Assembly (NCBI GenBank): GCA_002070205.1
Contig: MWCU01000054.1
Location: 11,968 to 75,967, forward strand
Source of the DNA: Firmicutes bacterium ADurb.Bin182
GTDB lineage: Bacteria > Bacillota > Clostridia > Christensenellales > CAG-138
DNA: 64,000 nucleotides
Reading direction: 5' to 3'
Both the position numbers and the translations under genes were made by a program. Shown in pieces: positions 2,537 through 38,033 of the stretch. How positions within the stretch are numbered: position 1 is the first letter of the stretch; the number at the start of each line of letters is the position of its first letter. A model generated the notes under the pieces. It did no database searches. It was not told the DNA's origin and saw only the letters and a list, made by a program, of their open reading frames with translations.

Positions 2537-2983
2537 ATGCCTGCGAGAATAAAATTTCTTCGCAATCTTAAAAAACCGCGGGTTTTGATTATTTCCTTGC
2601 TCGTTACTGCAGGCGCTGCGGTCGGCATGATTTGGTTTTGGAGTCTTAAAACCGTTAAAATGCCGCTTGACGGGTTGCATATTACGTCCGCCCGCATATG
2701 GTCGAATATTCTGCCGGAGCGCGAGCTTCATTCGGCTGAGATCAACGATTTGATGATTGCCTTAAAATCGGCAAAAAATGTCGTTCTTAACGATTTTGAA
2801 GGCATCACGCCGGGATACGGAATTTACGCCGAATGCGAAAACGGCGGGACGATGCTTATCAATGAAGCGCGCTGCGCGTACGGCGATATCGAAGTGCAGT
2901 ACAAGGGCCGCGCGTATTGGGTGGACGATGTCGAACTGGCGGCGCTTGTTCGCCGGTATTGCGGATTGGACGAGGAATTTTAG
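2537..2983 (+). CDS. hypothetical N-terminally membrane-anchored protein
   Basis: ATG 2537 follows GGAGAG. One N-terminal TM segment (VLIISLLVTAGAAVGMIWFW). The upstream part of ORF 2345-2983 overlaps the peptidase gene and the terminator, so it is not coding. Confidence 0.5.
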   Translation: MPARIKFLRNLKKPRVLIISLLVTAGAAVGMIWFWSLKTVKMPLDGLHITSARIWSNILPERELHSAEINDLMIALKSAKNVVLNDFEGITPGYGIYAECENGGTMLINEARCAYGDIEVQYKGRAYWVDDVELAALVRRYCGLDEEF

Positions 2984-3131
2984 GTGGGGGCAAGTCTGTG
3001 GTTTGCCCGTTCTATGAATTTCGCAGGTGATTACCGTAAGCGTTTTTAATCGTCCCATGTGCCGGATCGATCGCTCCCGTTCAAACACAAGGGGGCGGTT
3101 TATTAACAGCACGCCGCTGACGCACATAAAT

Positions 3132-3169
3132 GTTGATGACGTTCACCGAATCATGTATAATAGGCGAGC
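3132..3169 (+). promoter_or_regulatory. sigma70-like promoter for PNPOx copy 1
   Basis: TTGATG, 17-nt spacer, TATAAT. A diverged equivalent sits upstream of copy 2. Confidence 0.4.
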
Positions 3170-3234
3170 AACTTATTCCAATCAAACGCAAAGGAAACTT
3201 TTATAACCGCATATGCGGTGAAAGCGGGTATACG

Positions 3235-3717
3235 ATGTTCAGTGAAATGAGAAGGTCAAAGCAATTAATGTCAAATGGTGACGCGGAGGCCGTAATGGCA
3301 AGATGCACGAATGGAGTCCTTGCCTGCGCGGGCGACGACGGTTATCCGTATGCGGTTCCGTTGAGCTATGTATATCATAAAAATAAAATCTATTTTCATT
3401 CCGCAAAGGCAGGCCATAAAATCGATTCTATAAAAAGGGATCCCAAGGTTTCATTCGCGGTCGTCGACGAAGATACGATAGTCAGTGAGGAATACACGAC
3501 TTATTATCGCAGCGTCATCGCTTTCGGCAAAGCAAGGATAGCCGAAGGAGCCGAAAGGCTCGAAGCTTTTCGGGCTTTAGTCGAAAAATATTCGGGCGAC
3601 CAGCCCGAAGAATCCAAGCGTGAGAAAACGGAAGGGTGTTCGCAATCAGATATCGTCGCAATCGATATCGAGCACATGACCGGCAAGCAAGCTATCGAAT
3701 ACGCCGCGAAAAAATAA
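3235..3717 (+). CDS. pyridoxamine 5'-phosphate oxidase family (Nim/PNPOx-like FMN-binding) protein, copy 1
   Basis: 160 aa, the same length as copy 2. NGVLACAGDDGYPYAVPLSYVY...IYFHSAKAGHK is typical of the split-barrel PNPOx/Nim family. Confidence 0.8.
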   Translation: MFSEMRRSKQLMSNGDAEAVMARCTNGVLACAGDDGYPYAVPLSYVYHKNKIYFHSAKAGHKIDSIKRDPKVSFAVVDEDTIVSEEYTTYYRSVIAFGKARIAEGAERLEAFRALVEKYSGDQPEESKREKTEGCSQSDIVAIDIEHMTGKQAIEYAAKK

Positions 3718-3767
3718 ACGCAACCGGTCTATCGCCGGCTGCTGCGCAAATAAAGGGGAGTTAAAAA

Positions 3768-4427
3768 ATGAAAGAAATAGAATCGAACAAGCACTCATGG
3801 AGCCAAATTTCCGAGGATCATTATTACGCATTCAAAGCGCGATTCAAAGAAGGAACTCAATTTTTCAATTATTACATAAAACGGGAGCTCGGGGACATCA
3901 CGGGCAAGGATATCATCCACCTTCAATGCAACACGGGCGCGGATACGATACTTTTAGCGCAGATGGGAGCTGAGCACGTAACGGGAGTGGACTTGGTTCC
4001 CGAGAATATTTATTACGCAAAAAAGCTTGCTTCCGATCTAAATGTGACAAACGTTGATTTTTTTGAATCCGATATCATGACTTTATCGCAAAAATACAAT
4101 AAAAAGCACGATATGGTATTCACTTCGGAAGGTGCGCTCGTGTGGCTTCCGGACATGGAAGTCTGGGCGAAAACTGTACGCTCCCTTTTAAACGATACCG
4201 GATATCTTTATGTTTTCGATTCTCATCCGTTTTTCTTAATGCTGGACGAAGAAAAACTCGATAAGCAGATTTACGATATAAAGTATCCCTACTTTAAAAA
4301 AACGCCCGACTTCGATACGACTATAGGCGGCTACGCTTCGGAGCGCAAGGGTTTAAACACACGGTTGTTTAATGTGGTAGACTGTTATAACCATGTAATA
4401 AGCTATTATAACGAACCGTTCAATTAG
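3768..4427 (+). CDS. class I SAM-dependent methyltransferase, 3'-truncated chimeric copy
   Basis: GGGGAG RBS. Identical to 8995-9795 through ...GGYASERKG. It then reads 23 unrelated residues where the duplication ends at 4351. The SAM-binding region IIHLQCNTGADT is retained. Confidence 0.6.
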   Translation: MKEIESNKHSWSQISEDHYYAFKARFKEGTQFFNYYIKRELGDITGKDIIHLQCNTGADTILLAQMGAEHVTGVDLVPENIYYAKKLASDLNVTNVDFFESDIMTLSQKYNKKHDMVFTSEGALVWLPDMEVWAKTVRSLLNDTGYLYVFDSHPFFLMLDEEKLDKQIYDIKYPYFKKTPDFDTTIGGYASERKGLNTRLFNVVDCYNHVISYYNEPFN

Positions 4428-4478
4428 TTTCCGGTTTTACTAAGACATATCATTCAAATAGCGGCGAGGTTGAAAACG

Positions 4479-5228
4479 ATGAAAAAGCGAAAGCGGATAT
4501 ATATATTCTCAGTTGTTTTAATTGAATCCATAGTTATCGTGATTTCTTTGTTTTATGCATCGAGAGCAAGAAACTTTCAATTTTTCGGCAGCATTTATTC
4601 ATCGATACCCAATGACGATAAGAAGATCGCTTTGACATTTGATGACGGTCCAACAAAAAACACCGGATCGATTATTGAAAAGCTGCAAGAATTCGATATT
4701 ACGGCTACTTTCTTTGTCTGCGGAGCCGAAATCGCGGAAAGGCCTGAAGACGCAAGAGCTATTGTAAATGCAGGATATGCCCTCGGGAATCATTCTTATT
4801 CGCATAAGAGAATGGTTTTTAAATCCTACTCCTTTTGCAAAGACGAGGTCGATAAGACAAACGAGCTCATAAGAGAGAGCGGATACGACGGCGAGATTTT
4901 TTTCAGACCTCCTTATTGCAAGAAGCTGTTTGCTTTGCCGTATTATTTGAACAAAATCGATATGCCTTCGATCACATGGGATAATGAGCCGGAATCGGTT
5001 TTGAGGTTTGACGCTTCGCCGAAGGAAACCGCCCAATACATAATGGATAATGTGCAAAGCGGCTCGATAATACTGCTTCACCCGATGTACGAACCAAAAA
5101 ACACACTTCTTGCCTTGGATATGATCGTACCGGAACTTCACAGGCAGGGATATATTTTTTGTACCGTGGCAGAGTTGTATAATGAATATGAGAGAAACGC
5201 GGGGACGGTTGTGAATCAGACAAATTGA
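4479..5228 (+). CDS. polysaccharide deacetylase (NodB homology domain) with N-terminal TM anchor
   Basis: Motifs LTFDDGP and HSYSH, plus an N-terminal hydrophobic helix. ATG 4479 is preferred over TTG 4470. Confidence 0.85.
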   Translation: MKKRKRIYIFSVVLIESIVIVISLFYASRARNFQFFGSIYSSIPNDDKKIALTFDDGPTKNTGSIIEKLQEFDITATFFVCGAEIAERPEDARAIVNAGYALGNHSYSHKRMVFKSYSFCKDEVDKTNELIRESGYDGEIFFRPPYCKKLFALPYYLNKIDMPSITWDNEPESVLRFDASPKETAQYIMDNVQSGSIILLHPMYEPKNTLLALDMIVPELHRQGYIFCTVAELYNEYERNAGTVVNQTN

Positions 5229-5340
5229 GCGATTGACAGGTACATAACCGCAAGAATCGACCCTGCGATTTTACTGTGACTCCATATGCGTGCGCATATG
5301 CGACGCGCGGCGAAAACGTACAGAAACAGGAGGAATGGAC

Positions 5341-7416
5341 ATGAGCGCGAAAAAACTTTTTACGGCGCTGCTGTGCGCAGCGCTGGTTTTGGCACTGCTG
5401 CCCGCTGCTGCGCAGGCGGAAAGCTATCCGGACAACTTAGAGTTTGACGTTTCGGAGGGAGACCTCACGATCAGCAATGCGGGAGATGGCAATCTGATTG
5501 TCACGTACGGCACGCCGGCGAATACAACTGCACCTTTTCCGAATACGCAGAACATTACGATCACCGGCACAACTGCCACCAACACGGTCACGGCGGAAAG
5601 CGGCGTTGTCGCTCATATTACGCTAAACGGCATGCGCATCTATGCTTCGAGCGGCGAGTGCGCGTTTGAACTTGAGGGGAATGCCTCAGTCAGCCTGACT
5701 CTTTCGGGGGCAAGCATCTTAAAGAGCGGCCTCGGCAAAGCCGGACTTCAGGTACCGGAAAACGCCGCGCTCACCATTAGCGGCGCAGGCGCGCTCACGG
5801 CCGCAAGCACCATCGACACCATCAATGGAACTGAGGGAGCGGGCATCGGCGGAGCGCATGGCGGCAAAAACGGAGCGATCACTATTTCCGGCGGCACGGT
5901 CACGGCCACAAGCATCAACGGCGCGGGAATCGGCGGCGGTCACTTAGGAGACGGCGGCAGTATTGAAATCAGCGGCGGCACGGTCATAACCTACAGCAAC
6001 TACGGCGCGGGTATCGGCGGTAGTGGTGGCACTGGTTACGGCGGCAGCGTCGTTATCAGCGGCGGCACGGTCATAACCAACAGCAACTACGGCGCAGGTA
6101 TCGGCGGTGGTGCCACCGGTTATGGCGGCAGCGTCGTTATCAGCGGCGGCACAGTCACGTCCGAGAGCATCAACGGCGCGGGCATTGGCAGCGGCTATTT
6201 AGGAGAAAGCGGCAGCGTCGTCATCAGCGGCGGTACAGTCACATCCGAAAGCAGCTATGGCGCGGGCATCGGCAGCGGCTTTCCCGCAATTGCGGTGACA
6301 ACGGTGATCACGGGCGGCTCAATAAAAGCGAACGGCGGTACCTTAGCCATTCAGGGCACACCGACAAACGGGGCGGATCACGACAATCAGTCGCTCAGCC
6401 TTGCAAAGATAACGATTCCGGGCATCACCGCAGCCACGCGCGTCACTGCGCTGACGATCCCTACTGCGTCTTACTATGGAACTGACGATATATATACGGA
6501 CGATGACGGCAAGCTCTATCTCTGGCTGCCGAGCGGCGCTGTTGTTCAGCAGGCGCGTACGGCGGATACGGCTTACGACAACGTTTCCGATTCGCTCGTC
6601 GCCGATACGGCCAAACCTTCGGTCACGGGCATATCGCCCGCGGGTCCGGATGCGGCTCCCGGCGGCGATATTGTGATCACCTTCAACGAGGAAATGCGCT
6701 CTGAGGCGGGTTCGGTCTGCTTAAACGTGGACGCGCCGTTATCGGGCGGCAGCTGGAACGCGGGCAAGACCGTGTACACTGTTCCCTATTCCGGCCTTGC
6801 TTACGACACGGCATATACGGTCACAGTTTCCGGCTTTGCGGACTATTCGGGCAATGTCATGGATCCCGATTCAGACTATTCGTTCACTACTGTGAAGGCG
6901 CATCCGCCCGAACCGGATTATATTCCCCGCACGCTCATTGATCAAGCCACGGGAGTATCCGTATCCGGCAGCCTTATCCATAAGTACGCCGCGCTTTCGG
7001 CGGGGGATTTAGCGCTGCACTCATCGGGGAACTGCGCAGCCTCCGATGTGATCCGGCAGCGGATGGGGTATAACGATCACCTGTTCCTGCAGGGCAAGGA
7101 TATATCGCTTTCAAGGGGTTTCAAAGGCACGCTGACGATCACGATGCCGGTGGGCGCGAAGTACAACGGGCAGATCGTTACCATTCTCCATTGCGCGGGT
7201 GGCGCGCTTCACACGTATACCGCCACGGTAACGGACGGGAAAGCTGTGTTCAGCGTGACCGAGCTTTCTCCCTTCGCGGTGTTTGCAAGCTCGGCGGTCG
7301 ATATCCCCAAAACCGGTGACAGCGGCTCCACCTTGGGCCTGTGGCTGCTGTGCGCAGGAACAGTTACAATCATCGCTGAGCTCGCTGTAAACAGGAAAAG
7401 AAAAAAGACCGTTTAA
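5341..7416 (+). CDS. sortase-anchored surface protein with parallel beta-helix-type ISGGTVT/GAGIGG repeats and an SbsA-like Ig domain
   Basis: Signal peptide ...LLPAAAQA. At least 5 repeats of about 27-29 aa. The C-terminus has IPKTG, a hydrophobic helix and an RKRKK tail. ATG 5341 sits 7 nt after AGGAGG. Confidence 0.8.
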   Translation: MSAKKLFTALLCAALVLALLPAAAQAESYPDNLEFDVSEGDLTISNAGDGNLIVTYGTPANTTAPFPNTQNITITGTTATNTVTAESGVVAHITLNGMRIYASSGECAFELEGNASVSLTLSGASILKSGLGKAGLQVPENAALTISGAGALTAASTIDTINGTEGAGIGGAHGGKNGAITISGGTVTATSINGAGIGGGHLGDGGSIEISGGTVITYSNYGAGIGGSGGTGYGGSVVISGGTVITNSNYGAGIGGGATGYGGSVVISGGTVTSESINGAGIGSGYLGESGSVVISGGTVTSESSYGAGIGSGFPAIAVTTVITGGSIKANGGTLAIQGTPTNGADHDNQSLSLAKITIPGITAATRVTALTIPTASYYGTDDIYTDDDGKLYLWLPSGAVVQQARTADTAYDNVSDSLVADTAKPSVTGISPAGPDAAPGGDIVITFNEEMRSEAGSVCLNVDAPLSGGSWNAGKTVYTVPYSGLAYDTAYTVTVSGFADYSGNVMDPDSDYSFTTVKAHPPEPDYIPRTLIDQATGVSVSGSLIHKYAALSAGDLALHSSGNCAASDVIRQRMGYNDHLFLQGKDISLSRGFKGTLTITMPVGAKYNGQIVTILHCAGGALHTYTATVTDGKAVFSVTELSPFAVFASSAVDIPKTGDSGSTLGLWLLCAGTVTIIAELAVNRKRKKTV

Positions 7417-7439
7417 ACGGTAAAGGCAGTGTTTATAAA

Positions 7440-7474
7440 GGGGCAAGCGGGAACGACCCGCCTGCCCTCTTTTA
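7440..7474 (+). terminator. Rho-independent terminator after the surface protein gene
   Basis: GGGCAAGCGGG-AACGA-CCCGCCTGCCC (one mismatch), followed by TCTTTT. Confidence 0.65.
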
Positions 7475-7533
7475 AAGCTTTAGCGATATTAACCAACGGC
7501 TATGCCGGTGAGAATAAAGATCTTTAGATACAA

Positions 7534-7603
7534 GCAAAACCTCCTTTTGCTAAAATAAGTGCAGGTCTGCTAACCGCACAAAGGAAGCAAAAGGAGGTTT
7601 TGT
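7534..7603 (+). promoter_or_regulatory. stem-loop sequestering the tnpA ribosome-binding site
   Basis: GCAAAACCTCCTTTTGC (7534-7550) pairs with GCAAAAGGAGGTTTTG (7587-7602), which contains the AAGGAGG RBS. Confidence 0.7.
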
Positions 7604-7606
7604 CGA

Positions 7607-8077
7607 TTGAACGACATACAAAGCTTATCACATTCAAAATGGAGATGCCAATATCATATTGTGTTTGCACCAAAATATCGAAGGAAAGAGATCTATGGAA
7701 AAATCAAAGTGGATATAGGGAAGATATTGCGAAAACTGTGCGAGCAGAAAAATGTGGAGATTGTAGAAGCAAACGCGTGCCCTGACCATATCCACATGCT
7801 GGTATGTATACCGCCGAACTTAAGCGTAGCGCAGTTTATGGGATACCTAAAGGGAAAGAGCGCGCTTATGATATTCGACAGACATGCAAACCTGAAATAC
7901 AAGTACGGGAACAGACATTTCTGGTGCAGGGGGTATTATGTGGATACGGTAGGACGAAATAAAAAAGCGATAGAGGAGTATATAAAAAACCAATTACAGG
8001 AGGATATAGTAGCGGACCAAATATCGTTTAAAGAATACATCGACCCGTTTACGGGTAGCAAGAATTCCGAGGCGTAA
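7607..8077 (+). CDS. tnpA: IS200/IS605 family Y1 (HUH) transposase TnpA
   Basis: SHSKWRCQYHIVFAPKYRRKEIYG and PDHIHMLV (HUH) motifs, with the catalytic-Tyr region near YIKNQ. TTG start. Confidence 0.9.
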   Translation: MNDIQSLSHSKWRCQYHIVFAPKYRRKEIYGKIKVDIGKILRKLCEQKNVEIVEANACPDHIHMLVCIPPNLSVAQFMGYLKGKSALMIFDRHANLKYKYGNRHFWCRGYYVDTVGRNKKAIEEYIKNQLQEDIVADQISFKEYIDPFTGSKNSEA

Positions 8078-8350
8078 AAAAGGCCGCTTTAGCGGCGGCC
8101 TGTAGAAAAAATGCAGTTTGCAGATTATTCGATGCGTCTTGAGACGCAGCAAGCAGTATGCCCTTTTAGGGCTTGTGCATACCACGCGTTTAACGCGTGG
8201 TTTTGATTCAGGTGAAATAAAAAAACTCAAAATATTGCTCTTAGTCTGTTTTTCTGCTTGCAGCAACAACATTAAAGGAAGAGTCAATATCGGCATGAAC
8301 CACTAAGATGAACGGCTGATTCAATATTGGTAATTGCCGAAAGCCCGCAA

Positions 8351-9578
8351 TAAATGTTGATGATATCAGCCGAATCATATATAATAAGCCGCAGGCAACT
8401 TATTCCAATCAAACGCAAAGGAAACTTTTATGATCGCATATGCGGTTAAAGCGGGTACACGATGTTCAGAGAAATGAGAAGGCACAAACAATTACTGCCG
8501 ACCGATGAGGTGGCAGCGGTAATGGCAAGATGCACGAATGGAGTCCTTGCCTGCGCGGGCGACGACGGTTATCCGTATGCGGTTCCGTTGAGCTATGTAT
8601 ATCATAAAAATAAAATCTATTTTCATTCCGCAAAGGCAGGCCATAAAATCGATTCTATAAAAAGGGATCCCAAGGTTTCATTCGCGGTCGTCGACGAAGA
8701 TACGATAGTCAGTGAGGAATACACGACTTATTATCGCAGCGTCATCGCTTTCGGCAAAGCAAGGATAGCCGAAGGAGCCGAAAGGCTCGAAGCTTTTCGG
8801 GCTTTAGTCGAAAAATATTCGGGCGACCAGCCCGAAGAATCCAAGCGTGAGAAAACGGAAGGGTGTTCGCAATCAGATATCGTCGCAATCGATATCGAGC
8901 ACATGACCGGCAAGCAAGCTATCGAATACGCCGCGAAAAAATAAACGCAACCGGTCTATCGCCGGCTGCTGCGCAAATAAAGGGGAGTTAAAAAATGAAA
9001 GAAATAGAATCGAACAAGCACTCATGGAGCCAAATTTCCGAGGATCATTATTACGCATTCAAAGCGCGATTCAAAGAAGGAACTCAATTTTTCAATTATT
9101 ACATAAAACGGGAGCTCGGGGACATCACGGGCAAGGATATCATCCACCTTCAATGCAACACGGGCGCGGATACGATACTTTTAGCGCAGATGGGAGCTGA
9201 GCACGTAACGGGAGTGGACTTGGTTCCCGAGAATATTTATTACGCAAAAAAGCTTGCTTCCGATCTAAATGTGACAAACGTTGATTTTTTTGAATCCGAT
9301 ATCATGACTTTATCGCAAAAATACAATAAAAAGCACGATATGGTATTCACTTCGGAAGGTGCGCTCGTGTGGCTTCCGGACATGGAAGTCTGGGCGAAAA
9401 CTGTACGCTCCCTTTTAAACGATACCGGATATCTTTATGTTTTCGATTCTCATCCGTTTTTCTTAATGCTGGACGAAGAAAAACTCGATAAGCAGATTTA
9501 CGATATAAAGTATCCCTACTTTAAAAAAACGCCCGACTTCGATACGACTATAGGCGGCTACGCTTCGGAGCGCAAGGG
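8351..9578 (+). repeat. segmental duplication, copy 2
   Basis: See 3126-4351. Confidence 0.9.
8462..8944 (+). CDS. pyridoxamine 5'-phosphate oxidase family protein, copy 2
   Basis: Differs from copy 1 only in the first ~18 residues (MFREMRRHKQLLPTDEVAAV versus MFSEMRRSKQLMSNGDAEAV). Confidence 0.8.
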   Translation: MFREMRRHKQLLPTDEVAAVMARCTNGVLACAGDDGYPYAVPLSYVYHKNKIYFHSAKAGHKIDSIKRDPKVSFAVVDEDTIVSEEYTTYYRSVIAFGKARIAEGAERLEAFRALVEKYSGDQPEESKREKTEGCSQSDIVAIDIEHMTGKQAIEYAAKK

Positions 9579-9795
9579 CGGAGTCGAGTCTTATTGCTGG
9601 ATGTTTACGGTTTCAGATATTATTAATTCACTGATAAGGGCCGGCATGCGCATCGACTTCTTTAACGAATTTACGGAGAATTTTTATGATGTCGGCAATA
9701 TGAAAAAGTCTGATAAAGAAGGTTTACTGATATACGAATACAACCGTGATAAATATCCGATGTCCTTCAGCCTGAAGGCTTCGGTCAACGCTTAA
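8995..9795 (+). CDS. class I SAM-dependent methyltransferase, full length
   Basis: 266 aa with a Rossmann SAM-binding motif. This is the intact counterpart of 3768-4427. Confidence 0.8.
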   Translation: MKEIESNKHSWSQISEDHYYAFKARFKEGTQFFNYYIKRELGDITGKDIIHLQCNTGADTILLAQMGAEHVTGVDLVPENIYYAKKLASDLNVTNVDFFESDIMTLSQKYNKKHDMVFTSEGALVWLPDMEVWAKTVRSLLNDTGYLYVFDSHPFFLMLDEEKLDKQIYDIKYPYFKKTPDFDTTIGGYASERKGGVESYCWMFTVSDIINSLIRAGMRIDFFNEFTENFYDVGNMKKSDKEGLLIYEYNRDKYPMSFSLKASVNA

Positions 9796-9848
9796 GCATA
9801 TTATCTTCGGCAGCAGCCCGAACCGAATAAATCCAATAAAGCATTAAA

Positions 9849-9881
9849 ACTGCCGGAACCTTTACAACATGCTCCGGCAGT
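9849..9881 (-). terminator. hairpin terminator shared by convergent genes
   Basis: ACTGCCGGA ... TCCGGCAGT 9-bp stem, followed by TTTTAAT on the minus strand. Confidence 0.5.
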
Positions 9882-9980
9882 GTGTTCAGCAAGACGAAAG
9901 AATCATCTTTGTCTTTCCAGAAAGAAAAAAGAATCGTTCCCTTTGTCTTTTATCTTACCGCGGATCCACATAATTTGCGT

Positions 9981-11135
9981 CTACTTCTTTTTCTGCTTGA
10001 GCAGTATAAAAATCAGCACGGCTATTGCCAGCAGCAGCGCGGCGATTATGATGATAAGCAGAATGAGCGTTATACCCAGGGGAGCCTGCGCTCCTGCTAC
10101 CGCAGGCAGCGGCGAGGGCGAGGCCTCAAGCGTGGGAACGGGCGTATCTTGCGGCAGTTCGGGAGTCGGCGAAACAGCCGCCGCGGGCGCAGTTGAAGCT
10201 GCGCCGGACTCAGGAGTAACCGTGGCTGTGGGCGGCGCTGCCGTATGCGTTTCCCGGGGGCGCTCGGTGGGCCGCTCGGTGGGCCGTACAGTGGGACTTA
10301 CTGTTGCCCGCGGGGCTTCCGTTACGGTATAAACTATGCTGTAGTTGCTGCCGCCATAGTTGACCCCGGCGAGCGAGTATTTGAGACTGCAGTTGATGCG
10401 CAGCCTGTCGGTGATATCCTGCTCCGTCAGCGTATAGCTGAAGGGTACGGTTACCGACTCTCCCAGGTTAAGGTCCCCGAAATCGCGTGCAGGCATGAAG
10501 TGATTTTCAGCCCCGTTCACATCGACTATGACGGCCACGTTCAGGTTTTTGATGACCATGCCGTCTGCGGTACTGACGTTGTCTATGTAGATGTTTCCGG
10601 ACAGCGTATCCCCCGTATGCAGTGTGCTGCGGCGCGGAGTCAAATCGTATGTAAGGCGGTACGGGACACCCGAGCCCCGCATGGTGAAGTTCTCCGTTTG
10701 CATGCCATCCGGATTGGCATCGCCATCGTTGTTGATGGCGACCAATAGCACGCGCTGAGTATTGATGTCGCTTCCGGTGAAACGTATGTTATCAAATACC
10801 AGCTTTTTCTCTTCCCCGGGCGCTATAGTGCCTTCCCAATGCTCCGAAAATCCGTCTTTTAAGTTGATGACGACATCGACCTTGGTTATGTTCGCCGTGC
10901 CCTCGTTCTTCACGCGCAGTATCAGCCTTACATACCCGCCTATGTGCCCCAGGCCGCCCGGATAGAAGTCATAAGTCATCGAAAAATCGTCGTTGGCCGC
11001 AAGCGCGGTAACCGGCGGCAGCTGCGCGGACAACAGCAGTGCCGCGAACAGCAATGAAACAAGTCTGGCTGCGGCAGCTTTCCAGGCAAGTTTCGGCATA
11101 TGCATTTGAATAAAATATTTGCGTTTCATTTTCAT
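9981..11135 (-). CDS. secreted CARDB-like repeat protein with Pro/Thr-rich stalk and C-terminal TM anchor
   Basis: Signal peptide ...PPVTALA. Two or three beta-sandwich-like modules (RVKNEGTANITKVDVVINL...PGEEKKL). PT-rich linker, then LILLIIIIAALLLAIAVLIFILL-KQKKK. ATG 11135 follows AAAGGGG. Confidence 0.65.
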   Translation of the reverse strand: MKMKRKYFIQMHMPKLAWKAAAARLVSLLFAALLLSAQLPPVTALAANDDFSMTYDFYPGGLGHIGGYVRLILRVKNEGTANITKVDVVINLKDGFSEHWEGTIAPGEEKKLVFDNIRFTGSDINTQRVLLVAINNDGDANPDGMQTENFTMRGSGVPYRLTYDLTPRRSTLHTGDTLSGNIYIDNVSTADGMVIKNLNVAVIVDVNGAENHFMPARDFGDLNLGESVTVPFSYTLTEQDITDRLRINCSLKYSLAGVNYGGSNYSIVYTVTEAPRATVSPTVRPTERPTERPRETHTAAPPTATVTPESGAASTAPAAAVSPTPELPQDTPVPTLEASPSPLPAVAGAQAPLGITLILLIIIIAALLLAIAVLIFILLKQKKK

Positions 11136-11399
11136 GTGGGCCCCTTTCAAGATGTGAGTGGGTCTTATAACCGCTTATGTGCGGCTGCGTCTTTTACTTT
11201 TCACCAATAGCAATATGTTAAGAGCGGCGGCGGGCAGACAAGTACGCCGATAATGAGCTGTATCCTGACCGGAATAAAGCTTATATATTAAACTATATGA
11301 TATATTGAAAAATATGAAATAAACCGGTGTTAGGTTTTATGGAATATTTTTATTTATTTTGATATACTGCACATATAAACCTGTCGGGAGGGTCCGAAG

Positions 11400-13943
11400 T
11401 TGTCTGGACCAGTCAGGCTCCTGTGTCCTCCGGTAGTTACGGTTACGGCGTTTGAGCGCTTTGAAATCAACAAAGCCATTGACGGCGCGCTGAAAAAGGA
11501 CGTCGCGTATATCCATGCTCCCGCAGGTTTCGGCAAGACGGTTGCCATGAGCATGTGGCTTGCAAGGAAGCAATGCAATGCGGCATGGATACCTTTCACA
11601 GTATATGACGACAGCCCTTCTGTTTTTTGTCGTTATCTTATAACGGCGCTTTTTAAACTTGAGGCCGGGTTGGCCCTATGTGCCCGCGATGTCCTAAATA
11701 ATCCCGGGTTTGATTCCGCGCCGTTCGAGTATCTCTTTAAAGCGCTTGCTTCAACAGCGGGCAGCGCTTATGGCGGCATAATTGTGCTCGATGATTTCCA
11801 CCAGATTCAAAACGAGGCAATACTCAAGGCTATGCCCATGATTATAAAAAAGCTGTTGCCGACGCATAAGTTCGCCATACTTAGCAGGCTGAAGCCGCCG
11901 GCGACGTTTTCCGATATGGCGGTCAAGCATCTGATAGGGGAGGTCACGGAGCACGAGCTGCGCTTTACAAGGCTGCAGATAGTCAGGCTTTACAAAGCCT
12001 GCGGGATAGAGCTAAGCCCGGCCGACGCGGCGGAAATCGAGGCCAAAACAGGCGGGTGGGCGCTGGGGCTGGGCGCGCGGCTAATATTCGGAAAATCAGA
12101 CAAAACGGAAAGCATGTACTGTGGAGATTCGGGCCGGCAATACATCAGCCAATACCTGAAAAATGAGATTTGGGACAAATGGGATGACAGCACACGCGAA
12201 TTCCTGATAAAGACCTCTATGTTGGAAGACTTGCCGGTCGAGCTGTGCGACACGCTGTGCAATTGCGATAGCAGGCAAACGCTGACTGCGCTTGCGGAAA
12301 GCAGCGGCCTGGTAATACGGCTCTCGGACGGATTATACAGATACCACCATATACTGCGCGATTTCCTGAGGCAACAGGCGGCAGAGTCGCGCGCCGCGCT
12401 TTCGCGCTGTTACGTCATTGCTGCGGACTATATGCACAAAAAGGGGAAGCTTCCGGCAGCGCTCGATTATTATAAGAAAAGCGCGGACAGCGAGGCGTTA
12501 AGCGCATTTTTATACAGCATATTTGATTATGATAATATGAATTCAAGCATAGAGGACATATACGATTCCTTTCTGTTTTTAAAAGAATTGCCCGCTGAAA
12601 CAATAGAAAACGATTTGCCGCTGCTGACATTGTACGCATGCATAAGCTATACCGGCGGCAATTTTGGGCAATTTAAGTCCGGCATGGCAAGGCTTAACGC
12701 TTACATGGAGAATTGTACGAATGTCAGTCCGAGGACGGTGGCCGGCGCGTTGCTGTTGCAATTTGCCAATCCGCTTATTCCGGCCCGCGAGATCGAGATA
12801 AAGGAAATATTCGGTAAATTTGAATTGCAAAGTATACCCGCCCTGTCCATCACGTTTAATCTTCCGTATCTGCACCGCAGCCACAGGGATTATTCGGATA
12901 TTGCAAACGACTGGGCTGAAACTGTGCCCGTGCTTGCAGAACGATTCAAAGCGATAGCGGGGGATATCATAGACATTTATATGAATGGGGTAGCGGGCGG
13001 CCTGCTCTATGAGCAGAACAAACTTGCGAGAGCGAGGGAGTACATGCTGAAAGCCCACAGCCGGCTTGCGGATAAAATAAATCCCGAGCTCAGGTTCGCG
13101 GTTCAGATGCACATAGCTTTGATATTTTTTGCGGAGGGTGATGAAAAAAACGCCTGGGACGCAATTGCTGCTGCGCAGGTGATGATGGACAACAGCAGCG
13201 CTTTATATCATGCAAAGAATTTAAATGCCATAATCACCAAATACCGCTTATATAAGGGCGACATTAATGCGGCAAGGGAATGGCTTTCAAGCTATATGGT
13301 AAGCGATACCGATAAGGTTACCTTGTTTCAATTATACCAGATATTGACAACTATACGCGCCAAAATTACTTTGGGCGAATTTGCTTCCGCGCTTATGCTC
13401 ATATCCAGCGCCGAACGAATCGCCGTTGATTTTTGCAGGCCGCTGGATGAAATAGAATTATATATACTGCGCGCTGTTGTGTACTGGAAAGAAAAAAGAC
13501 GAAGCAGTGCCGTCGATGCCATGGAGAAGGCCGTAATGCTTGCGAAGCCTTATGGCTATATCAGGCTGTTTGCAAACGAAGGCGCCGCGGTCATAACCAT
13601 GCTTCAGAAGCTGTACGGCAAAGTTTCCGCTGTTGCGGCAGAACCGGAACTGTTATGTTTTATACACGAGCTGATTATCTGCGCCAGTGAAAATGCGGAA
13701 GTTTATCCCGGGATGGCGTCAAGCGCGGAGGAGGAACTTGTTAAGCTGTCAAAGCAGCAGGCAATAATGCTTTCGCATATAGCCGGTGGAAAAAACATCC
13801 AGCAGATATGTAAAGCAACCGGATTAAAGCGCAATACGGTAAAAGCGCATTTGTATAAACTTTATGAGAAGCTGGAGGTAAATAACGCGACCGAGGCTGT
13901 GCTTAAAGCCTACCGAATCAAGCTGCTGGAGAAAAAGGAGTAA
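11400..13943 (+). CDS. MalT-like LuxR-family regulator (STAND ATPase + TPR-like region + C-terminal LuxR HTH)
   Basis: Walker A HAPAGFGKT and Walker B IIVLDDFH. C-terminal LSKQQAIMLSHIAGGKNIQQICKATGLKRNTVKAHLYKLYEKLEV. TTG start behind GGGAGGG. Confidence 0.8.
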   Translation: MSGPVRLLCPPVVTVTAFERFEINKAIDGALKKDVAYIHAPAGFGKTVAMSMWLARKQCNAAWIPFTVYDDSPSVFCRYLITALFKLEAGLALCARDVLNNPGFDSAPFEYLFKALASTAGSAYGGIIVLDDFHQIQNEAILKAMPMIIKKLLPTHKFAILSRLKPPATFSDMAVKHLIGEVTEHELRFTRLQIVRLYKACGIELSPADAAEIEAKTGGWALGLGARLIFGKSDKTESMYCGDSGRQYISQYLKNEIWDKWDDSTREFLIKTSMLEDLPVELCDTLCNCDSRQTLTALAESSGLVIRLSDGLYRYHHILRDFLRQQAAESRAALSRCYVIAADYMHKKGKLPAALDYYKKSADSEALSAFLYSIFDYDNMNSSIEDIYDSFLFLKELPAETIENDLPLLTLYACISYTGGNFGQFKSGMARLNAYMENCTNVSPRTVAGALLLQFANPLIPAREIEIKEIFGKFELQSIPALSITFNLPYLHRSHRDYSDIANDWAETVPVLAERFKAIAGDIIDIYMNGVAGGLLYEQNKLARAREYMLKAHSRLADKINPELRFAVQMHIALIFFAEGDEKNAWDAIAAAQVMMDNSSALYHAKNLNAIITKYRLYKGDINAAREWLSSYMVSDTDKVTLFQLYQILTTIRAKITLGEFASALMLISSAERIAVDFCRPLDEIELYILRAVVYWKEKRRSSAVDAMEKAVMLAKPYGYIRLFANEGAAVITMLQKLYGKVSAVAAEPELLCFIHELIICASENAEVYPGMASSAEEELVKLSKQQAIMLSHIAGGKNIQQICKATGLKRNTVKAHLYKLYEKLEVNNATEAVLKAYRIKLLEKKE

Positions 13944-14175
13944 CCAAAAGGTATCCTTCAAATTGAAATATATTAGATGTAAAAGGCCGCCTGACAAGCT
14001 GCTCGTCGTATTCCATAAAGTTAATAAATATCATGTAAAAAACAGATAAGCTGTGGTATTTTATTAATCCCATCAACTCGAGCATTGTTGAGTGTGTCGT
14101 TTTGATTGCAAGAGCATAAGCCTTTATAGTTTTATTTGTATGCAGCTTATTTATATTTGTTTGAGGTAAACAGTA

Positions 14176-14646
14176 ATGACAGAACACGACAAAGTGAGAT
14201 TCGAAACTGTAAAATTTATGCGTGGTAAATATCGATTGGATGAGGTTGCGGGAATGTATTACGACATCCCTTGTCTGAAGTTTCGGCAAGGAAAGAAAAC
14301 CATTGTGTCCATAAATCTGTACGATGATCATTACGATTTTCAAATTGTTCTCGGGAAAGCCGAAAGAGAAAAATTTGAAGCAGTAAAGCATGAGTTCCCG
14401 CTCGAGATACAAGAACTTTATGACCGTGAACGCACCCTGCACGACGGCAAATGGCTCTTAATTCGTGTTGCCGATTTGAAAACTTTGGAAGCTGTCAAAA
14501 AGCTGATACTTATTAAGAAAAAACCAAACCGTAGCCTTTTTCAAAAGAAAATGCCGTGCATAGCAAATGCGGACATCGCTGCGATTTATGTGTGCATTAC
14601 ACCGGCATTACCGAAGAATTCAGAGAAATGCCAATTCCGCATCTGA
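14176..14646 (+). CDS. DUF3788-like protein (possibly the N-terminal half of a frameshifted fusion)
   Basis: GAGGT RBS. The conserved-looking sequence ends at ...LILIKKKPNR, and the remaining 35 residues look like out-of-frame read-through. Confidence 0.5.
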   Translation: MTEHDKVRFETVKFMRGKYRLDEVAGMYYDIPCLKFRQGKKTIVSINLYDDHYDFQIVLGKAEREKFEAVKHEFPLEIQELYDRERTLHDGKWLLIRVADLKTLEAVKKLILIKKKPNRSLFQKKMPCIANADIAAIYVCITPALPKNSEKCQFRI

Positions 14647-14921
14647 ATAACGTATACGGCGTATCTGATTGGGATATGCGTTGCACCGGTTGTGATACGC
14701 CCGATTGTCACTGTTATCGTGACGGGAATGAGTTATGTGAGCCGTTAAAATGTTTACATACAAAACAGCTTAATACTTGCTTTGATTGTGTAAAATATCC
14801 CTGTGAACAGGCAACCGTCGGATACAGGCAATTAGAACATAGAAATATTTCCGCCGATGATGTTACATGGGCGATTTTGCCTTATGTTCCATATCAATAC
14901 GAACAATCATACCAAAACTAA
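14556..14921 (+). CDS. Cys-rich DUF3795-like protein (possibly the C-terminal half of the same gene)
   Basis: CGHRCDLC...CTGC...C.C...C..LKC....C.DC..YPC pattern. Only a GTG start with no RBS. The frame is open from 14535 (PFSKENAVHSKCG). Confidence 0.5.
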   Translation: MHSKCGHRCDLCVHYTGITEEFREMPIPHLNNVYGVSDWDMRCTGCDTPDCHCYRDGNELCEPLKCLHTKQLNTCFDCVKYPCEQATVGYRQLEHRNISADDVTWAILPYVPYQYEQSYQN

Positions 14922-15015
14922 TCAAGCCACACCGTTTACGGGAATACAAATGTCGGGTGTTAAACCGGTTGCCTTGATTCTTCACATAATATTGATGATG
15001 ACGTTGTTCTGCCTT

Positions 15016-16446
15016 TTATTTCATGGGATAAGCCGCCGTAACAGCCGCCCATTCCTTCGGCGTGAACATTGCGCGCACATCTCGGCCGGAGGCATCGGTA
15101 AGCAGGTCTAAGAACACTTTAAGTTTTTTGGCGTCGGTAGTGCCTTCTTTCAGTTCAGGAAATTCGCGGAAAACGGTCTTAAAGCTGTCCCAACCGATCT
15201 CCTGGGCAATTTCCGTAAGCTTTGCGATCATTTCCCAAACACCGTAGCCGTCCTCCAAACGCCCCCCCAACTCACGCGCCGCTTTAAGAACCTCCAAGCC
15301 ACGGAAGGAAGTATTTGAGCTGTATTCGGATGGGGTTGCGCAAATGCTGTTAATATCCATTACATAGAACAGCTTTATGTCAGTCATGACTTCGCAGTTG
15401 AAATCCCAGCTGTGGCCGTCATCGAAAAGGTGGCCCATTTCGTGCAGTACGCCAAAGTTCCAGTCTCCCGGTTCCCGCGCTGCCATTTTGCTCAGGTCTT
15501 CGTACATTGATTTGCTGTCTATGCAGATTTCGTTGGTGCCGGGTGAATAAAACCCCCAGTATTTTTGATGCTCGTTTGCTTGAACCAAAACGGTGTCATA
15601 TTTTGCATAACCGGTCAACTCAGCATAGGAGTCGTATGCATTTTCTAAATCATCCGCCCATTTCTGCAGTCGATCCATACTGATTACCTTTAAAATCCGT
15701 TGTTCCAGAATAATGGTTACAATACCGCGCCCACCCTTCACCTCGATAGGTAACTTAGCCATATTTTGCAGTTGTACAGTCCAAACGTCGCGATCACCGA
15801 TGGCCTTGCGGCGGGTGATAAAGAAACCTCTGTCATTGGATGCTAAAACATACTTAGGTTCCTCGGCGGATACGATAATGTATTCACCAGGCGCATACTC
15901 CTCAAACTGCCAGTGTTGTGCGGTATTGCCGGTATCTTCCCAAAGCTTAACCTTGTTGCCGTTGTTATACCGTGCATTGTCAATATCCAGCATTTTCAGG
16001 CGGAGTGAATCTTTCACAATGTGCCAGCCATCTTCTTGCCCGGCAGGTCTAAAGTACCAGTTATAGGCTTGATCTGAAAGGCAAAGATTATCTTCGAAAC
16101 AGTTTAGATATTGACCTGTGCGGTTTTTGAGGGTAAACACGCCGTAGCTGCAGGGAACGTTTGCGGGGTGGTACGGTGTGGGCTCAAGTACGGGCTCAGG
16201 CGTAGACTCAGGTGTGCGCACGGGTGTGGGTGTGAGTATGAGCGTGAGTGTAGGTTGCCCGGGTTGTGACTGTTCTTTATCGGGTTCCGACTCTGTAGTT
16301 TGTGACATTGACTCTTGCTGCGTTTGTTCAGGTGCAGCGCAGCCTGCAAAACCAACGGTTATGGCTAGCGCCAAAACTAGTGCCGTTAGGTGAAGGATTA
16401 TCGAACTTTTCTTCCGGATAACGCTATTGTGTTGCACTTTTTTCAT
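15016..16446 (-). CDS. lipoprotein with ricin-type beta-trefoil lectin domain and HEXXH zinc-metallopeptidase domain
   Basis: Lipobox VGFAGC. PT-rich linker. QxW motifs (AQHWQF). VLHEMGHLFD zincin motif. Confidence 0.65.
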   Translation of the reverse strand: MKKVQHNSVIRKKSSIILHLTALVLALAITVGFAGCAAPEQTQQESMSQTTESEPDKEQSQPGQPTLTLILTPTPVRTPESTPEPVLEPTPYHPANVPCSYGVFTLKNRTGQYLNCFEDNLCLSDQAYNWYFRPAGQEDGWHIVKDSLRLKMLDIDNARYNNGNKVKLWEDTGNTAQHWQFEEYAPGEYIIVSAEEPKYVLASNDRGFFITRRKAIGDRDVWTVQLQNMAKLPIEVKGGRGIVTIILEQRILKVISMDRLQKWADDLENAYDSYAELTGYAKYDTVLVQANEHQKYWGFYSPGTNEICIDSKSMYEDLSKMAAREPGDWNFGVLHEMGHLFDDGHSWDFNCEVMTDIKLFYVMDINSICATPSEYSSNTSFRGLEVLKAARELGGRLEDGYGVWEMIAKLTEIAQEIGWDSFKTVFREFPELKEGTTDAKKLKVFLDLLTDASGRDVRAMFTPKEWAAVTAAYPMK

Positions 16447-16693
16447 GACTTGATCTCCATATTCCTGTTAGACGCTATTAAACAGACTATATTTTTCAAA
16501 AGGAAAATTCCTCCTGGTTGATATTCCCGAAAAGAAACAATTTTTGGGAAGTTACCTGCATGAAAGAAACATACTTATGTGCAGTATGGGTGATGACGCT
16601 TGAAAAAAATACTTGTTGCCCTACCTAATGCTGGGTAAGACCAATTAAACGTTTGTTTATAGCAGAGCGCGATACCCGCTTTTTAGAATAGTA

Positions 16694-16722
16694 TTGTACT
16701 AGATTATTGTCAAGGGTATAAT
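16694..16722 (+). promoter_or_regulatory. orphan sigma70-like promoter with no downstream CDS
   Basis: TTGTAC, 17-nt spacer, TATAAT. The next gene downstream is on the opposite strand. Confidence 0.3.
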
Positions 16723-16998: not shown

Positions 16999-17025
16999 GA
17001 AGCGCAAGAACCGACCCTGCGCTTC
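16999..17025. terminator. hairpin between the orphan transcript region and the 3' end of 17033-17404
   Basis: GAAGCGCA ... TGCGCTTC 8-bp stem, with weak T-rich flanks on both strands. Confidence 0.45.
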
Positions 17026-38013: not shown

Positions 38014-38033
38014 TAGAATTGGAGATTTTTATA

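What the first reader, a model, noticed from the sequence alone, without database searches (positions are those of the whole stretch)
3126..9578. Mosaic 1.2-kb segmental duplication brackets a 4-kb accessory insert containing IS200
3126-4351 and 8351-9578 are direct repeats. The first ~165 bp (promoter, leader and the first 18 codons of the PNPOx gene) are clearly diverged. The next ~1060 bp (3292-4351 versus 8519-9578) show no difference that I could find. The identity ends abruptly inside the methyltransferase gene, so the left copy (3768-4427) is a chimera with 23 foreign C-terminal residues. Between the repeats lie a polysaccharide deacetylase, the IPKTG surface protein and a solo IS200 tnpA. 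The sharp switch from diverged to identical sequence points to recent gene conversion or to a recombination-mediated insertion. The arrangement is also prone to deletion of the insert by recombination between the repeats.
Basis: seen in the sequence. Interest (0 to 1): 0.6.

Follow-up and report, generated by a model that had tools for sequence, protein, structure and literature searches.

The report
Duplicated two-gene operon homogenised by gene conversion
A small operon (a Nim-like flavoprotein gene plus a methyltransferase gene) is present twice, 5.2 kb apart, in an uncultured digester bacterium, and the copies have been kept alike by patchwise DNA exchange, which is a real but ordinary kind of genome evolution.

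Summary
Window 3126-4351 and 8350-9578 are direct repeats: 32 of 170 aligned columns differ at the 5' end, then 1060 bp (3292-4351 = 8519-9578) show no difference, and homology stops dead at both outer ends. The left methyltransferase is truncated after residue 195 and carries 24 unrelated residues.

The window comes from a short-read MAG (Firmicutes bacterium ADurb.Bin182). No read or read pair can span the 1060-bp repeat, and both copies may have been written from one assembly-graph edge, so "zero differences" may be partly by construction.

All four repeat junctions recur in independent assemblies from other samples. The two promoters are locus-specific in all nine sequences, so the duplication is older than the strain divergence.

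Three short blocks (55-100 bp, 14-23% diverged) each have two alleles, and both alleles occur at both loci, in all four combinations. Sites that vary between strains are identical between the window's two copies.

Best reading: an old paralogous operon pair under concerted evolution by short-patch gene conversion. IS200 (~7470-8208) is a passenger. How the duplication arose is unresolved. This is an ordinary phenomenon of low novelty.

The parts
3126..4351 (+). Left repeat copy: promoter A, leader, Nim-like gene and the first 195 codons of the methyltransferase.
   Evidence: The left context recurs in L012, L013, L014, L017 and L019.
8350..9578 (+). Right repeat copy: promoter B, leader, Nim-like gene and the first 195 codons of the full-length methyltransferase.
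   Evidence: The right context recurs in L001, L011 and L015.
3292..4351 (+). Identity tract, left copy. 1060 bp with 0 differences from 8519-9578.
   Evidence: 42 sites in this tract are polymorphic among strains, and none differs between the window's two copies.
8519..9578 (+). Identity tract, right copy.
   Evidence: L015 is 100% identical over 8519-9259.
3133..3161 (+). Promoter-like site A (TTGATG, 17-nt spacer, TATAAT). The spacer and downstream bases are locus-specific.
   Evidence: The haplotype is shared by wL (the window's left copy), L012, L013, L014 and L019.
8357..8385 (+). Promoter-like site B (TTGATG, 17-nt spacer, TATAAT), locus-specific.
   Evidence: The haplotype is shared by wR (the window's right copy), L015, L001 and L011.
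3205..3291 (+). Block 1 (leader plus codons 1-19), allele 1 in the left copy. The right copy (8432-8518) carries allele 2, with 20 of 87 positions different.
   Evidence: Allele 2 occurs at the left locus in L019. Allele 1 occurs, with 4 differences, at the right locus in L001 and L011.
3235..3717 (+). Nim-like PNPOx-superfamily flavoprotein gene, left copy (160 aa).
   Evidence: Pfam Pyridox_ox_2 and PNPOx_N. The exact protein is also found in JGI 3300029440.
8462..8944 (+). Nim-like PNPOx-superfamily flavoprotein gene, right copy (160 aa).
   Evidence: Pfam. NCBIfam NimABCDEF scores 188.6 bits, below the 260-bit cut-off.
3768..4427 (+). Truncated chimeric methyltransferase. Residues 1-195 equal the right copy, followed by 24 unrelated residues. 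It lacks the last 71 residues of the family.
   Evidence: HMM score 346 bits against 468 bits for the full copy; alignment ends at residue 195.
8995..9795 (+). Full-length class I SAM-dependent methyltransferase (266 aa).
   Evidence: More than 1000 full-length homologues of about 265 aa were found.
4352..4478 (+). Junction J2 and the upstream region of the deacetylase gene. It is unrelated to the methyltransferase 3' end.
   Evidence: J2 is reproduced in L015 and L016.
4479..5228 (+). Polysaccharide deacetylase (PgdA/PdaB-like), 249 aa.
5341..7416 (+). Surface protein, 691 aa, with beta-helix repeats (84-nt period at 5805-6273), a Big_5 domain and an IPKTG sorting signal.
7470..8208 (+). IS200 element of about 740 bp (tnpA 7607-8077), inserted in the intergenic region. 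Its ends lie 54 bp after the surface-protein gene and 141 bp before the right repeat.
   Evidence: Homology to IMG/VR IS200 copies stops at about 7470-7490 and at 8208. NCBIfam transpos_IS200 scores 153.7 bits. There is a weak STnc490-like match at 7491-7594.
2537..2983 (+). Hypothetical 148-aa gene that accompanies the left locus in every left-context contig.

Best explanation
The chromosome of this uncultured Firmicutes population carries two paralogous copies of a two-gene operon, a Nim-like flavoprotein gene and a class I SAM methyltransferase gene. The copies lie in direct orientation 5.2 kb apart.

The duplication is old. Each locus has kept its own promoter sequence and its own upstream neighbour: the hyp148 gene on the left and IS200 on the right. 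Inside the operon the copies do not evolve independently. Short-patch, RecA-type gene conversion between the loci, together with homologous recombination among strains, moves sequence blocks back and forth. As a result the copies within one genome resemble each other more than they resemble their positional counterparts in other strains.

In the window's lineage a conversion tract, or several overlapping tracts, covers 3292-4351. Its 5' end falls at codon 19 of the Nim-like gene. Its 3' end is fixed by the point where homology stops, because the left methyltransferase was cut at codon 195 by an illegitimate junction to the deacetylase upstream region. The truncated left methyltransferase is probably inactive. 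The left Nim-like gene is intact and has its own promoter. IS200 is a later simple insertion and played no part.

Shown: the repeat, its boundaries, all four junctions in independent assemblies, the locus-specific promoters, and block alleles shared across loci.

Inferred: that the exchange mechanism is gene conversion, that both copies sit on one molecule, and that they are truly 100% identical.
For: 1. The repeat and the sharp mosaic are real. 32 of 170 columns differ in the 5' part against 0 of 1060 in the tract (p = 2e-29).

2. All four junctions are seen in other assemblies.
- J1 (left flank into the repeat): L012, L013, L014, L017, L019.
- J2 (repeat into the deacetylase region), the whole insert and J3 (IS200 side into the repeat): L015, from another NCBI MAG, is 100% identical to window 4275-9259. 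L016, from Logan run SRR17648133, also covers J2.
- J4 (repeat into the methyltransferase 3' end): L018, L001, L011.
- L016 and L018 come from the same run, and each starts with the last 30 nt of the repeat. That is what a k=31 assembly graph gives when both exits exist.

3. The promoter haplotypes are strictly locus-specific in 9 of 9 sequences, although the strains differ by 2-4% elsewhere. The paralogy is therefore old.

4. Concerted evolution. wL (the window's left copy) and wR (the window's right copy) differ at 0 of 887 positions over 3292-4178, the part of the tract covered by all the contigs. Each differs from the same-locus sequences of other strains at 14-36 of 887 positions. The block 3 allele 'p' is in both window copies, while allele 'q' is at both loci in other strains.

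5. Inter-locus exchange is seen directly. L019 carries the left flank and promoter A, then switches between 3207 and 3220 to the allele that the window has only at its right locus. L001 and L011 carry promoter B with a mostly left-type block 1.

6. All four allele combinations exist for (promoter, block 1) and for (block 2, block 3). The gaps between these pairs are 37 bp and 24 bp, shorter than the assembly k-mers, so the linkage is not an assembler switch.

7. L019 shows that the left locus once had a full-length methyltransferase with its own terminator. The window's left copy is therefore a truncated derivative.
Against: - The source contig is a short-read metagenome assembly. The BioProject's paper describes Illumina 2x151 reads and metaSPAdes with k up to 127. 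No read or read pair spans 1060 bp, so both copies may have been emitted from one graph edge with bubbles popped. True differences of a few SNPs, or even a short diverged block, could have been erased.
- Linkage through the whole repeat is documented only for promoter B to the methyltransferase 3' end (L001, L011) and for promoter A to a full-length methyltransferase (L019), and those are other strains. It is not documented for promoter A to the deacetylase.
- Left-context and right-context contigs of other strains come from different samples. It is therefore not proven that both loci coexist in one genome outside the window's lineage.
- The three left-context contigs stop at 4178-4201, before J2, for unknown reasons.
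Confidence: 0.65

Rival explanations
1. Recent recombination-mediated (Campbell-type) insertion. A circular DNA carried promoter B, the Nim-like gene, a methyltransferase fragment ending at codon 195, the deacetylase, the surface protein and IS200. It integrated by a single crossover into a single-copy locus like that of L019. This duplicated the homology, and the identity reflects the recency of the event rather than later conversion.
For: The topology fits exactly. The left copy ends where the homology of the putative circle would end, and the right copy starts where it would start. L019 looks like an unoccupied site, with promoter A and a full-length methyltransferase.
Against: - The insert has no integrase, replication or mobilisation gene.
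- The arrangement of IS200, promoter B, the repeat and the window's right flank is conserved in strains 2.4% diverged (L001, L011). Promoter A is conserved in others. The event would therefore have to be old, and identity would then again need conversion.
- L019's sequence after the methyltransferase stop codon is not the window's right flank.
- Block alleles present at both loci need repeated exchange in any case.
Confidence: 0.15
2. Assembly-path artefact. The organism, or a mix of strains, has one chromosomal copy (promoter A, repeat, methyltransferase 3' end) plus a separate 5.2-kb circular or strain-specific molecule (promoter B, repeat, deacetylase, surface protein, IS200). Alternatively two strains each have one context. 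The assembler unrolled the graph loop into a tandem arrangement.
For: Short reads cannot span the repeat. A graph with one entry, one exit and one loop is resolved the same way whatever the truth. All independent contigs break at or inside the repeat. The 100% identity of L015 to the window over 4985 bp shows the same graph structure, not linkage.
Against: - L001 and L011 link IS200 and promoter B through the whole repeat to the methyltransferase 3' end and the right flank. A circle would not contain that path.
- A 5.2-kb molecule without any replication gene is unlikely to persist.
- The same junction set recurs in a sample sequenced years later (SRR17648133).
- Concerted block alleles at both loci are easier to explain if the loci share a cell.
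Confidence: 0.12
3. IS200-mediated event. The IS200 copy mobilised or duplicated the adjacent operon, as in a composite or one-ended transposition.
For: An IS200 tnpA lies between the copies and upstream of the right copy in three strains.
Against: - There is a single IS copy and no second IS in the window.
- The element ends at about 7470 and 8208, which is 3.1 kb from one repeat boundary and 141 bp from the other.
- By established knowledge, IS200/IS605 elements move as single-stranded circles without target duplication and are not known to make kilobase direct repeats of flanking DNA.
Confidence: 0.02

Closest known systems
Concerted evolution of duplicated bacterial genes by RecA-dependent gene conversion (the textbook example is tufA/tufB in Salmonella; recalled from general knowledge, not tested here)
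   Same: There are two paralogous copies on one chromosome. The coding parts are kept near-identical while the flanks and promoters diverge. Tract boundaries are sharp. Variants are shared by both copies within a genome but differ between strains.
   Different: Here the copies are only 5.2 kb apart and in direct orientation. One copy is truncated. The evidence comes from metagenome contigs, not from isolates. The exchanged units are short (55-100 bp) and highly diverged (14-23%), and they also segregate among strains.
Mosaic genes produced by homologous recombination among strains or species (for example the pbp genes of streptococci; general knowledge)
   Same: Discrete blocks of about 15-23% divergence are embedded in sequence that is more than 99% identical. 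All four allele combinations occur between adjacent blocks.
   Different: The alternative alleles here are found at two loci of the same lineage. An intragenomic paralogue is therefore the obvious donor, and no foreign donor species was identified. The nearest other homologues are at most 78% identical at the protein level.
Campbell-type integration products and amplifiable units flanked by direct repeats
   Same: A segment is flanked by kilobase direct repeats, and one repeat is truncated at the end of the homology. Such a structure can in principle delete or amplify by unequal recombination.
   Different: There are no integration or replication functions. No empty site with matching flanks was found, and there is no evidence of copy-number change.
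nim genes (5-nitroimidazole reductases) of Bacteroides with upstream IS elements
   Same: A PNPOx-fold Nim-family protein matches the NimABCDEF model end to end, and an IS element lies upstream of one copy.
   Different: The score (188.6 bits) is below the equivalog cut-off (260 bits). The protein belongs to a very large family of anaerobe proteins, with more than 7000 hits at E <= 1e-30. The right copy has its own sigma-70-like promoter 141 bp downstream of the IS end. No resistance phenotype can be inferred.

Membership tests
Direct segmental duplication (paralogous repeat on one replicon) | Two homologous segments in the same orientation, with unrelated sequence outside them. | tested here: met
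   3126-4351 aligns to 8350-9578, and the flanks are unrelated.
Direct segmental duplication (paralogous repeat on one replicon) | All four repeat/unique junctions exist in nature and not only in this contig. | tested here: met
   J1 is in L012, L013, L014, L017 and L019. J2 is in L015 and L016. J3 is in L015, L001 and L011. J4 is in L018, L001 and L011.
Direct segmental duplication (paralogous repeat on one replicon) | Physical linkage of both copies on one molecule, shown by a read or clone that spans a copy with both of its flanks. | not testable with these tools
   Only short-read assemblies are available. Whole-repeat linkage is seen only for promoter B to the methyltransferase 3' end (L001, L011) and promoter A to a full-length methyltransferase (L019), in other strains.
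Gene conversion / concerted evolution of paralogues | Paralogues within a genome are more alike than positional homologues between genomes. | tested here: met
   The window's two copies differ at 0 of 887 positions, against 14-36 of 887 to same-locus sequences of other strains. Caveat: bubbles may have been collapsed in the assembly.
Gene conversion / concerted evolution of paralogues | Non-uniform divergence with sharp tract boundaries. | tested here: met
   32 of 170 columns differ in the 5' part against 0 of 1060 in the tract, p = 2e-29. Among polymorphic sites only, 32 of 33 against 0 of 42, p = 2e-20.
Gene conversion / concerted evolution of paralogues | The same allele is found at both loci, and recombinant combinations with locus-specific markers exist. 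| tested here: met
   The combinations (A,1), (A,2), (B,1') and (B,2) of promoter and block 1 are all observed. The breakpoint in L019 lies between 3207 and 3220.
Gene conversion / concerted evolution of paralogues | The identity of the two copies is verified at read level. | not testable with these tools
   No reads are available. The BioProject's methods describe metaSPAdes on 2x151 reads, which pops bubbles.
IS-mediated composite element | IS copies, or IS ends, at the boundaries of the mobilised or duplicated segment. | tested here: not met
   There is one IS200, at about 7470-8208. Its ends are not at 3126, 4351, 8350 or 9578.
Campbell-type integrated element | The insert is flanked by the duplicated homology, with one copy truncated at the end of the homology. 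| tested here: met
Campbell-type integrated element | An empty site with the same outer flanks exists in relatives. | tested here: inconclusive
   L019 has the left flank and a full-length methyltransferase, but its downstream 51 bp differ from the window's right flank.
Campbell-type integrated element | Integration, replication or mobilisation genes on the insert. | tested here: not met
   The insert holds only a deacetylase, a surface protein and IS200 tnpA.
Nim (5-nitroimidazole reductase) family | Score at or above the NCBIfam equivalog cut-off for NimABCDEF or NimIJ. | tested here: not met
   188.6 bits against a 260-bit cut-off, and 169.5 bits against a 270-bit cut-off. The PNPOx-fold Pfam families are met.
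IS200 group of IS200/IS605 | Y1 (HUH) transposase, no tnpB, and an element of about 0.7 kb. | tested here: met
   Pfam Y1_Tnp at 1e-39. NCBIfam transpos_IS200 at 153.7 bits against a 55-bit cut-off. The homology span is about 740 bp.

The most novel reading that the evidence does not exclude
The two loci may serve as reciprocal cassette donors. Short, strongly diverged patches at the N-terminus and C-terminus of a Nim-family flavoprotein, and at the operon's intergenic region, would then be shuffled between loci and strains under diversifying selection. That would amount to a low-grade variation system for a redox/detoxification enzyme. Alternatively, the 5.2-kb repeat-flanked unit may be an amplifiable or deletable cassette that changes the dosage of the Nim-like gene and the surface protein.
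Probability: 0.07. Interest if true: 0.45.

Novelty: new member of a known kind. Interest (0 to 1): 0.2.

Why it matters
The main value is as a worked example and a caution. It shows that paralogue gene conversion can be read from metagenome contigs when locus-specific markers lie within a k-mer of the exchanged blocks. It also shows that "perfect identity" of a kilobase repeat in a short-read MAG cannot be taken at face value. Biologically, it documents a duplicated Nim-like/methyltransferase operon with one decayed copy in a wastewater and digester Firmicutes lineage. Two kinds of IS element lie near the two operon copies: IS200 here, and ISL3 in other strains. There is no new mechanism, and no open question becomes testable.

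Tried and rejected
1. Residual homology beyond 4351. tblastn extended the left methyltransferase match to residue 214, which suggested a diverged remnant. This was rejected. The family HMM alignment stops at residue 195, the tail adds 0.2 bits (239 of 300 shuffled tails score at least as well), and the DNA Smith-Waterman score is at chance level.

2. IS200 as the cause. Rejected by mapping the element ends to about 7470 and 8208 using 39 IMG/VR relatives.

3. Riboswitch or known RNA in the conserved leader (3168-3234). Rfam gave no hit at E <= 1.

4. Close relatives in GTDB species genomes and JGI metagenome contigs. The peptide-pattern scans returned only methyltransferase homologues of 64% identity or less, and none had a Nim-like neighbour. 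The gene pairing is therefore lineage-specific, and these two scans gave no synteny information.

5. Exact-protein look-ups with ORF-finder start codons failed. They succeeded once the annotated starts were used.

6. Searching the window for L019's terminator, to test whether the left operon's lost 3' end survives nearby. There were 0 matches.

7. A foreign donor for the diverged blocks. No homologue between 78% and 88% protein identity was found. Allele 2 of block 1 is closer to the family consensus than allele 1, but this does not settle the direction of exchange.

8. Literature on the other samples. There were no hits for SRR17648133, JAKJBM or SRR29782968. PRJEB14051 appears in wastewater studies.

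Full report
**1. The observation**

A local alignment of the two regions and MAFFT alignments of their ends confirm the finding almost to the base.
- Window 3126-4351 aligns with 8350-9578.
- The last 1060 bp (3292-4351 = 8519-9578) have no difference.
- The first ~165 bp have 19 substitutions plus small indels, which is 32 differing columns out of 170.
- Twelve of the substitutions fall in the 33 bp just before the identical tract.
- Homology begins and ends abruptly.
- The contrast of 32/170 against 0/1060 gives Fisher p = 2e-29.
- This is the only long near-identical repeat in the 64-kb window.

**2. Gene content**

Each copy starts with a sigma-70-like promoter (TTGATG, 17 nt, TATAAT). A ~70-nt leader follows, then a 160-aa PNPOx-superfamily gene and a class I SAM methyltransferase gene.

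The PNPOx-like protein matches the NCBIfam NimABCDEF model end to end. It scores 188.6 bits, below the 260-bit equivalog cut-off, so I call it Nim-like, not Nim.

The right methyltransferase is full length (266 aa), like more than 1000 homologues. The left one is identical through residue 195 and then has 24 unrelated residues, not 23.

I tested whether that tail is a decayed remnant of the real C-terminus. It is not. A family HMM stops at residue 195, the tail scores no better than shuffled tails, and the DNA similarity is at chance.

Between the copies lie three features:
- a PgdA/PdaB-like deacetylase with its own upstream region;
- a 691-aa beta-helix/Big_5 protein ending in IPKTG plus a membrane anchor;
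- an IS200.

Comparison with 39 related IS200 copies places the element at about 7470-8208. It is a simple intergenic insertion, and its ends coincide with none of the repeat boundaries.

**3. Source and the assembly question**

Exact protein look-ups identify the window as a 102.5-kb contig of the MAG "Firmicutes bacterium ADurb.Bin182" (OQB24426-OQB24435). The paper of that BioProject describes Illumina 2x151 reads assembled with metaSPAdes at k up to 127 (PMC7382037). This bin may come from an earlier assembly of the same project. Either way it was built from short reads.

A 1060-bp exact repeat cannot be spanned by such reads. In a de Bruijn graph the locus is one entry, one repeat edge, one loop and one exit. 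The assembler walks the repeat edge twice. The arrangement is then the only linear solution of the graph. The two copies are identical by construction, and isolated differences or short diverged bubbles would have been popped. This reasoning is inference from how such assemblers work.

**4. Independent evidence**

The two collection scans found no close relatives. Exact-protein look-ups did recover ten contigs from other samples, assigned by BLAST to the window.

| Context | Contigs | Match to window |
|---|---|---|
| Left (hyp148, promoter A, Nim-like, methyltransferase 5' part) | L012 (JGI 3300029440) | 98.1% identity; ends at 4178 |
| Left | L013, L014 (two ENA projects) | 96.6% identity; both end at 4201 |
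| Left | L017 (Logan SRR29782968, 11 kb) | 98.5% identity; ends exactly 30 nt into the 37-nt stretch 3168-3204 that both copies share, as expected for k=31 if both contexts are in the sample |
| Left | L019 (JGI 3300010357) | described in section 6 |
| Right (IS200, promoter B, whole operon, right flank to 9977) | L001, L011 | about 98% identity |
| Insert | L015 (contig of another NCBI MAG, GCA_022706985.1) | 100% identical to window 4275-9259: last 77 nt of the repeat, the whole insert, and 741 nt into the right copy |
| Insert | L016 (Logan SRR17648133) | covers 4322-7076 |
| Right flank | L018 (Logan SRR17648133) | covers 9549-17006 |

L016 and L018 come from the same run, and each starts with the last 30 nt of the repeat. 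All four junctions are therefore real and recur. What remains unproven is physical linkage of promoter A through the repeat to the deacetylase.

**5. What the comparison shows**

In what follows, wL is the window's left copy and wR is its right copy.

The promoter segment (3140-3167) has two haplotypes that differ at 12 columns. They are strictly tied to context in all nine sequences. The duplication therefore predates the 2-4% divergence among these strains.

Downstream, variation is concentrated in three short blocks, each with two alleles:

| Block | Position | Content | Differences between alleles |
|---|---|---|---|
| 1 | 3205-3291 | leader plus codons 1-19 | 20/87 |
| 2 | 3621-3718 | C-terminus of the Nim-like protein | 21/100 |
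| 3 | 3743-3797 | intergenic region plus start of the methyltransferase | 11/80 |

The rest is at least 99% identical in everything sampled.

Allele distribution:
- For blocks 1 and 3, both alleles were seen at both loci.
- For block 2, allele x was seen at both loci and allele y only at the left locus.
- Block 1 allele 2, the window's right-copy type, sits behind promoter A in L019. The switch lies between 3207 and 3220.
- Block 1 allele 1 sits, with four right-type sites retained, behind promoter B in L001 and L011.
- All four combinations occur for (promoter, block 1) and for (block 2, block 3).
- Those pairs are only 37 bp and 24 bp apart, less than the assembly k-mers. The combinations are therefore real haplotypes, not assembler switches.
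- Linkage across the longer identical stretches (block 1 to block 2, and block 3 onward) could be chimeric, so I do not rely on it.

The window's two copies share the (x, p) combination of blocks 2 and 3, which was seen in no other contig. They are identical at all 42 sites of the tract that vary among strains.

**6. Interpretation**

The pattern is concerted evolution of an old paralogous pair by short-patch gene conversion, overlaid with recombination among strains.

The "diverged 165 bp" has two components. The promoter part is true locus-specific divergence. The leader and N-terminal part is a segregating block at which the window's two copies happen to carry different alleles.

The 3' end of the tract is simply where homology ends. 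L019 shows that the left locus once had a full-length methyltransferase, one residue different from the window's protein, followed by its own terminator. The window's left copy therefore lost its 3' end by an illegitimate junction to the deacetylase upstream region.

It remains open how the arrangement arose. It could be an older duplication followed by deletion. It could instead be a Campbell-type integration of a circle carrying a truncated copy. The insert has no integration or replication genes. L019's 51 bp after the stop codon are neither the window's right flank nor found anywhere in the window.

The alternative of a single-copy chromosome plus a 5.2-kb circle is disfavoured. L001 and L011 link IS200 and promoter B through the repeat to the right flank. 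Only long reads, depth analysis or PCR can exclude that alternative.

**7. Comparison with known systems, and verdict**

This behaves like classical concerted evolution of duplicated bacterial genes and like mosaic genes formed by homologous recombination. It is not an IS-mediated structure, and the defining features of an integrative element are only partly met.

The Nim-like identity and the upstream IS recall Bacteroides nim loci. The protein is below the family cut-off and belongs to a very large anaerobe family. It also has its own promoter. The Nim-like/methyltransferase pairing is not conserved in distant genomes.

However, the phenomenon is ordinary, and the perfect identity is partly uninformative because of how the contig was built. 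Interest is low. Its novelty is that of a new instance of a known kind.

Noticed in passing
L013:3-611 (minus strand) and L014:2-292; breakpoint at window 2474: In two related metagenome contigs, synteny with the window stops exactly at the stop codon of the M24 peptidase gene (2474). There an ISL3-family transposase (Zn_ribbon_ISL3, HTH_Tnp_ISL3) replaces the peptidase. The neighbourhood of the left operon copy therefore takes IS insertions in other strains too.
   Followed up: partly
window 4178-4201 (= 9405-9428): All three left-context contigs end inside the repeat, well before its end: L012 at 4178, and L013 and L014 both at 4201 despite different k (119 and 127) and different projects. 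L015 ends at 9259. This suggests a population-level branch point, either an alternative junction or a variant, at about 4202 in the left locus of other strains. It is unexplained.
   Followed up: no
window 3207-3218 and 8435-8444: A perfect 12-bp palindrome, CCGCATATGCGG, lies in the leader of the left copy. In the right copy it is reduced to a 10-bp core, CGCATATGCG. It sits between the promoter and the start codon and could be an operator or a 5'-UTR hairpin. Rfam has no family hit for the leader.
   Followed up: partly
window 7491-7594: The 5' untranslated part of the IS200 gives a weak, sub-threshold match to Rfam STnc490 (24 bits against a 56-bit gathering score). It also contains a long-range inverted repeat (gcaaaacctccttttgc ... 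gcaaaaggaggttttg) that would sequester the tnpA ribosome-binding site, as described for Salmonella IS200.
   Followed up: no
window 5805-6273: There are five tandem 84-87-nt repeats (60-79% identity) inside the surface-protein gene. They encode glycine-rich beta-helix repeats (GAGIGG motifs). At 58-63% GC the gene is much richer in GC than its neighbours (36-47%).
   Followed up: partly
window 18434-23062 (minus strand): A 1542-aa ORF contains nine or more divergent InlB B-repeat (Flg_new_2) domains, with internal DNA repeats at 79-91% identity (19749-22094). It is another large repetitive surface protein.
   Followed up: partly
window 37012-41656: Three partially similar segments (84-87% identity over about 300-370 bp, starting at about 37012, 39027 and 41291) lie at the starts of consecutive ORFs. 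One of the ORFs has a weak RHS-repeat match and another a DUF5050 match. This may be an array of polymorphic-toxin or variable C-terminal cassettes.
   Followed up: no
window 9981-11135 (minus strand): A 384-aa hypothetical protein lies convergent to the right methyltransferase. It has a signal or anchor sequence, a Pro/Thr/Ala-rich linker and a C-terminal hydrophobic segment. It has no Pfam or NCBIfam hit and only two members in its 90% identity cluster.
   Followed up: no
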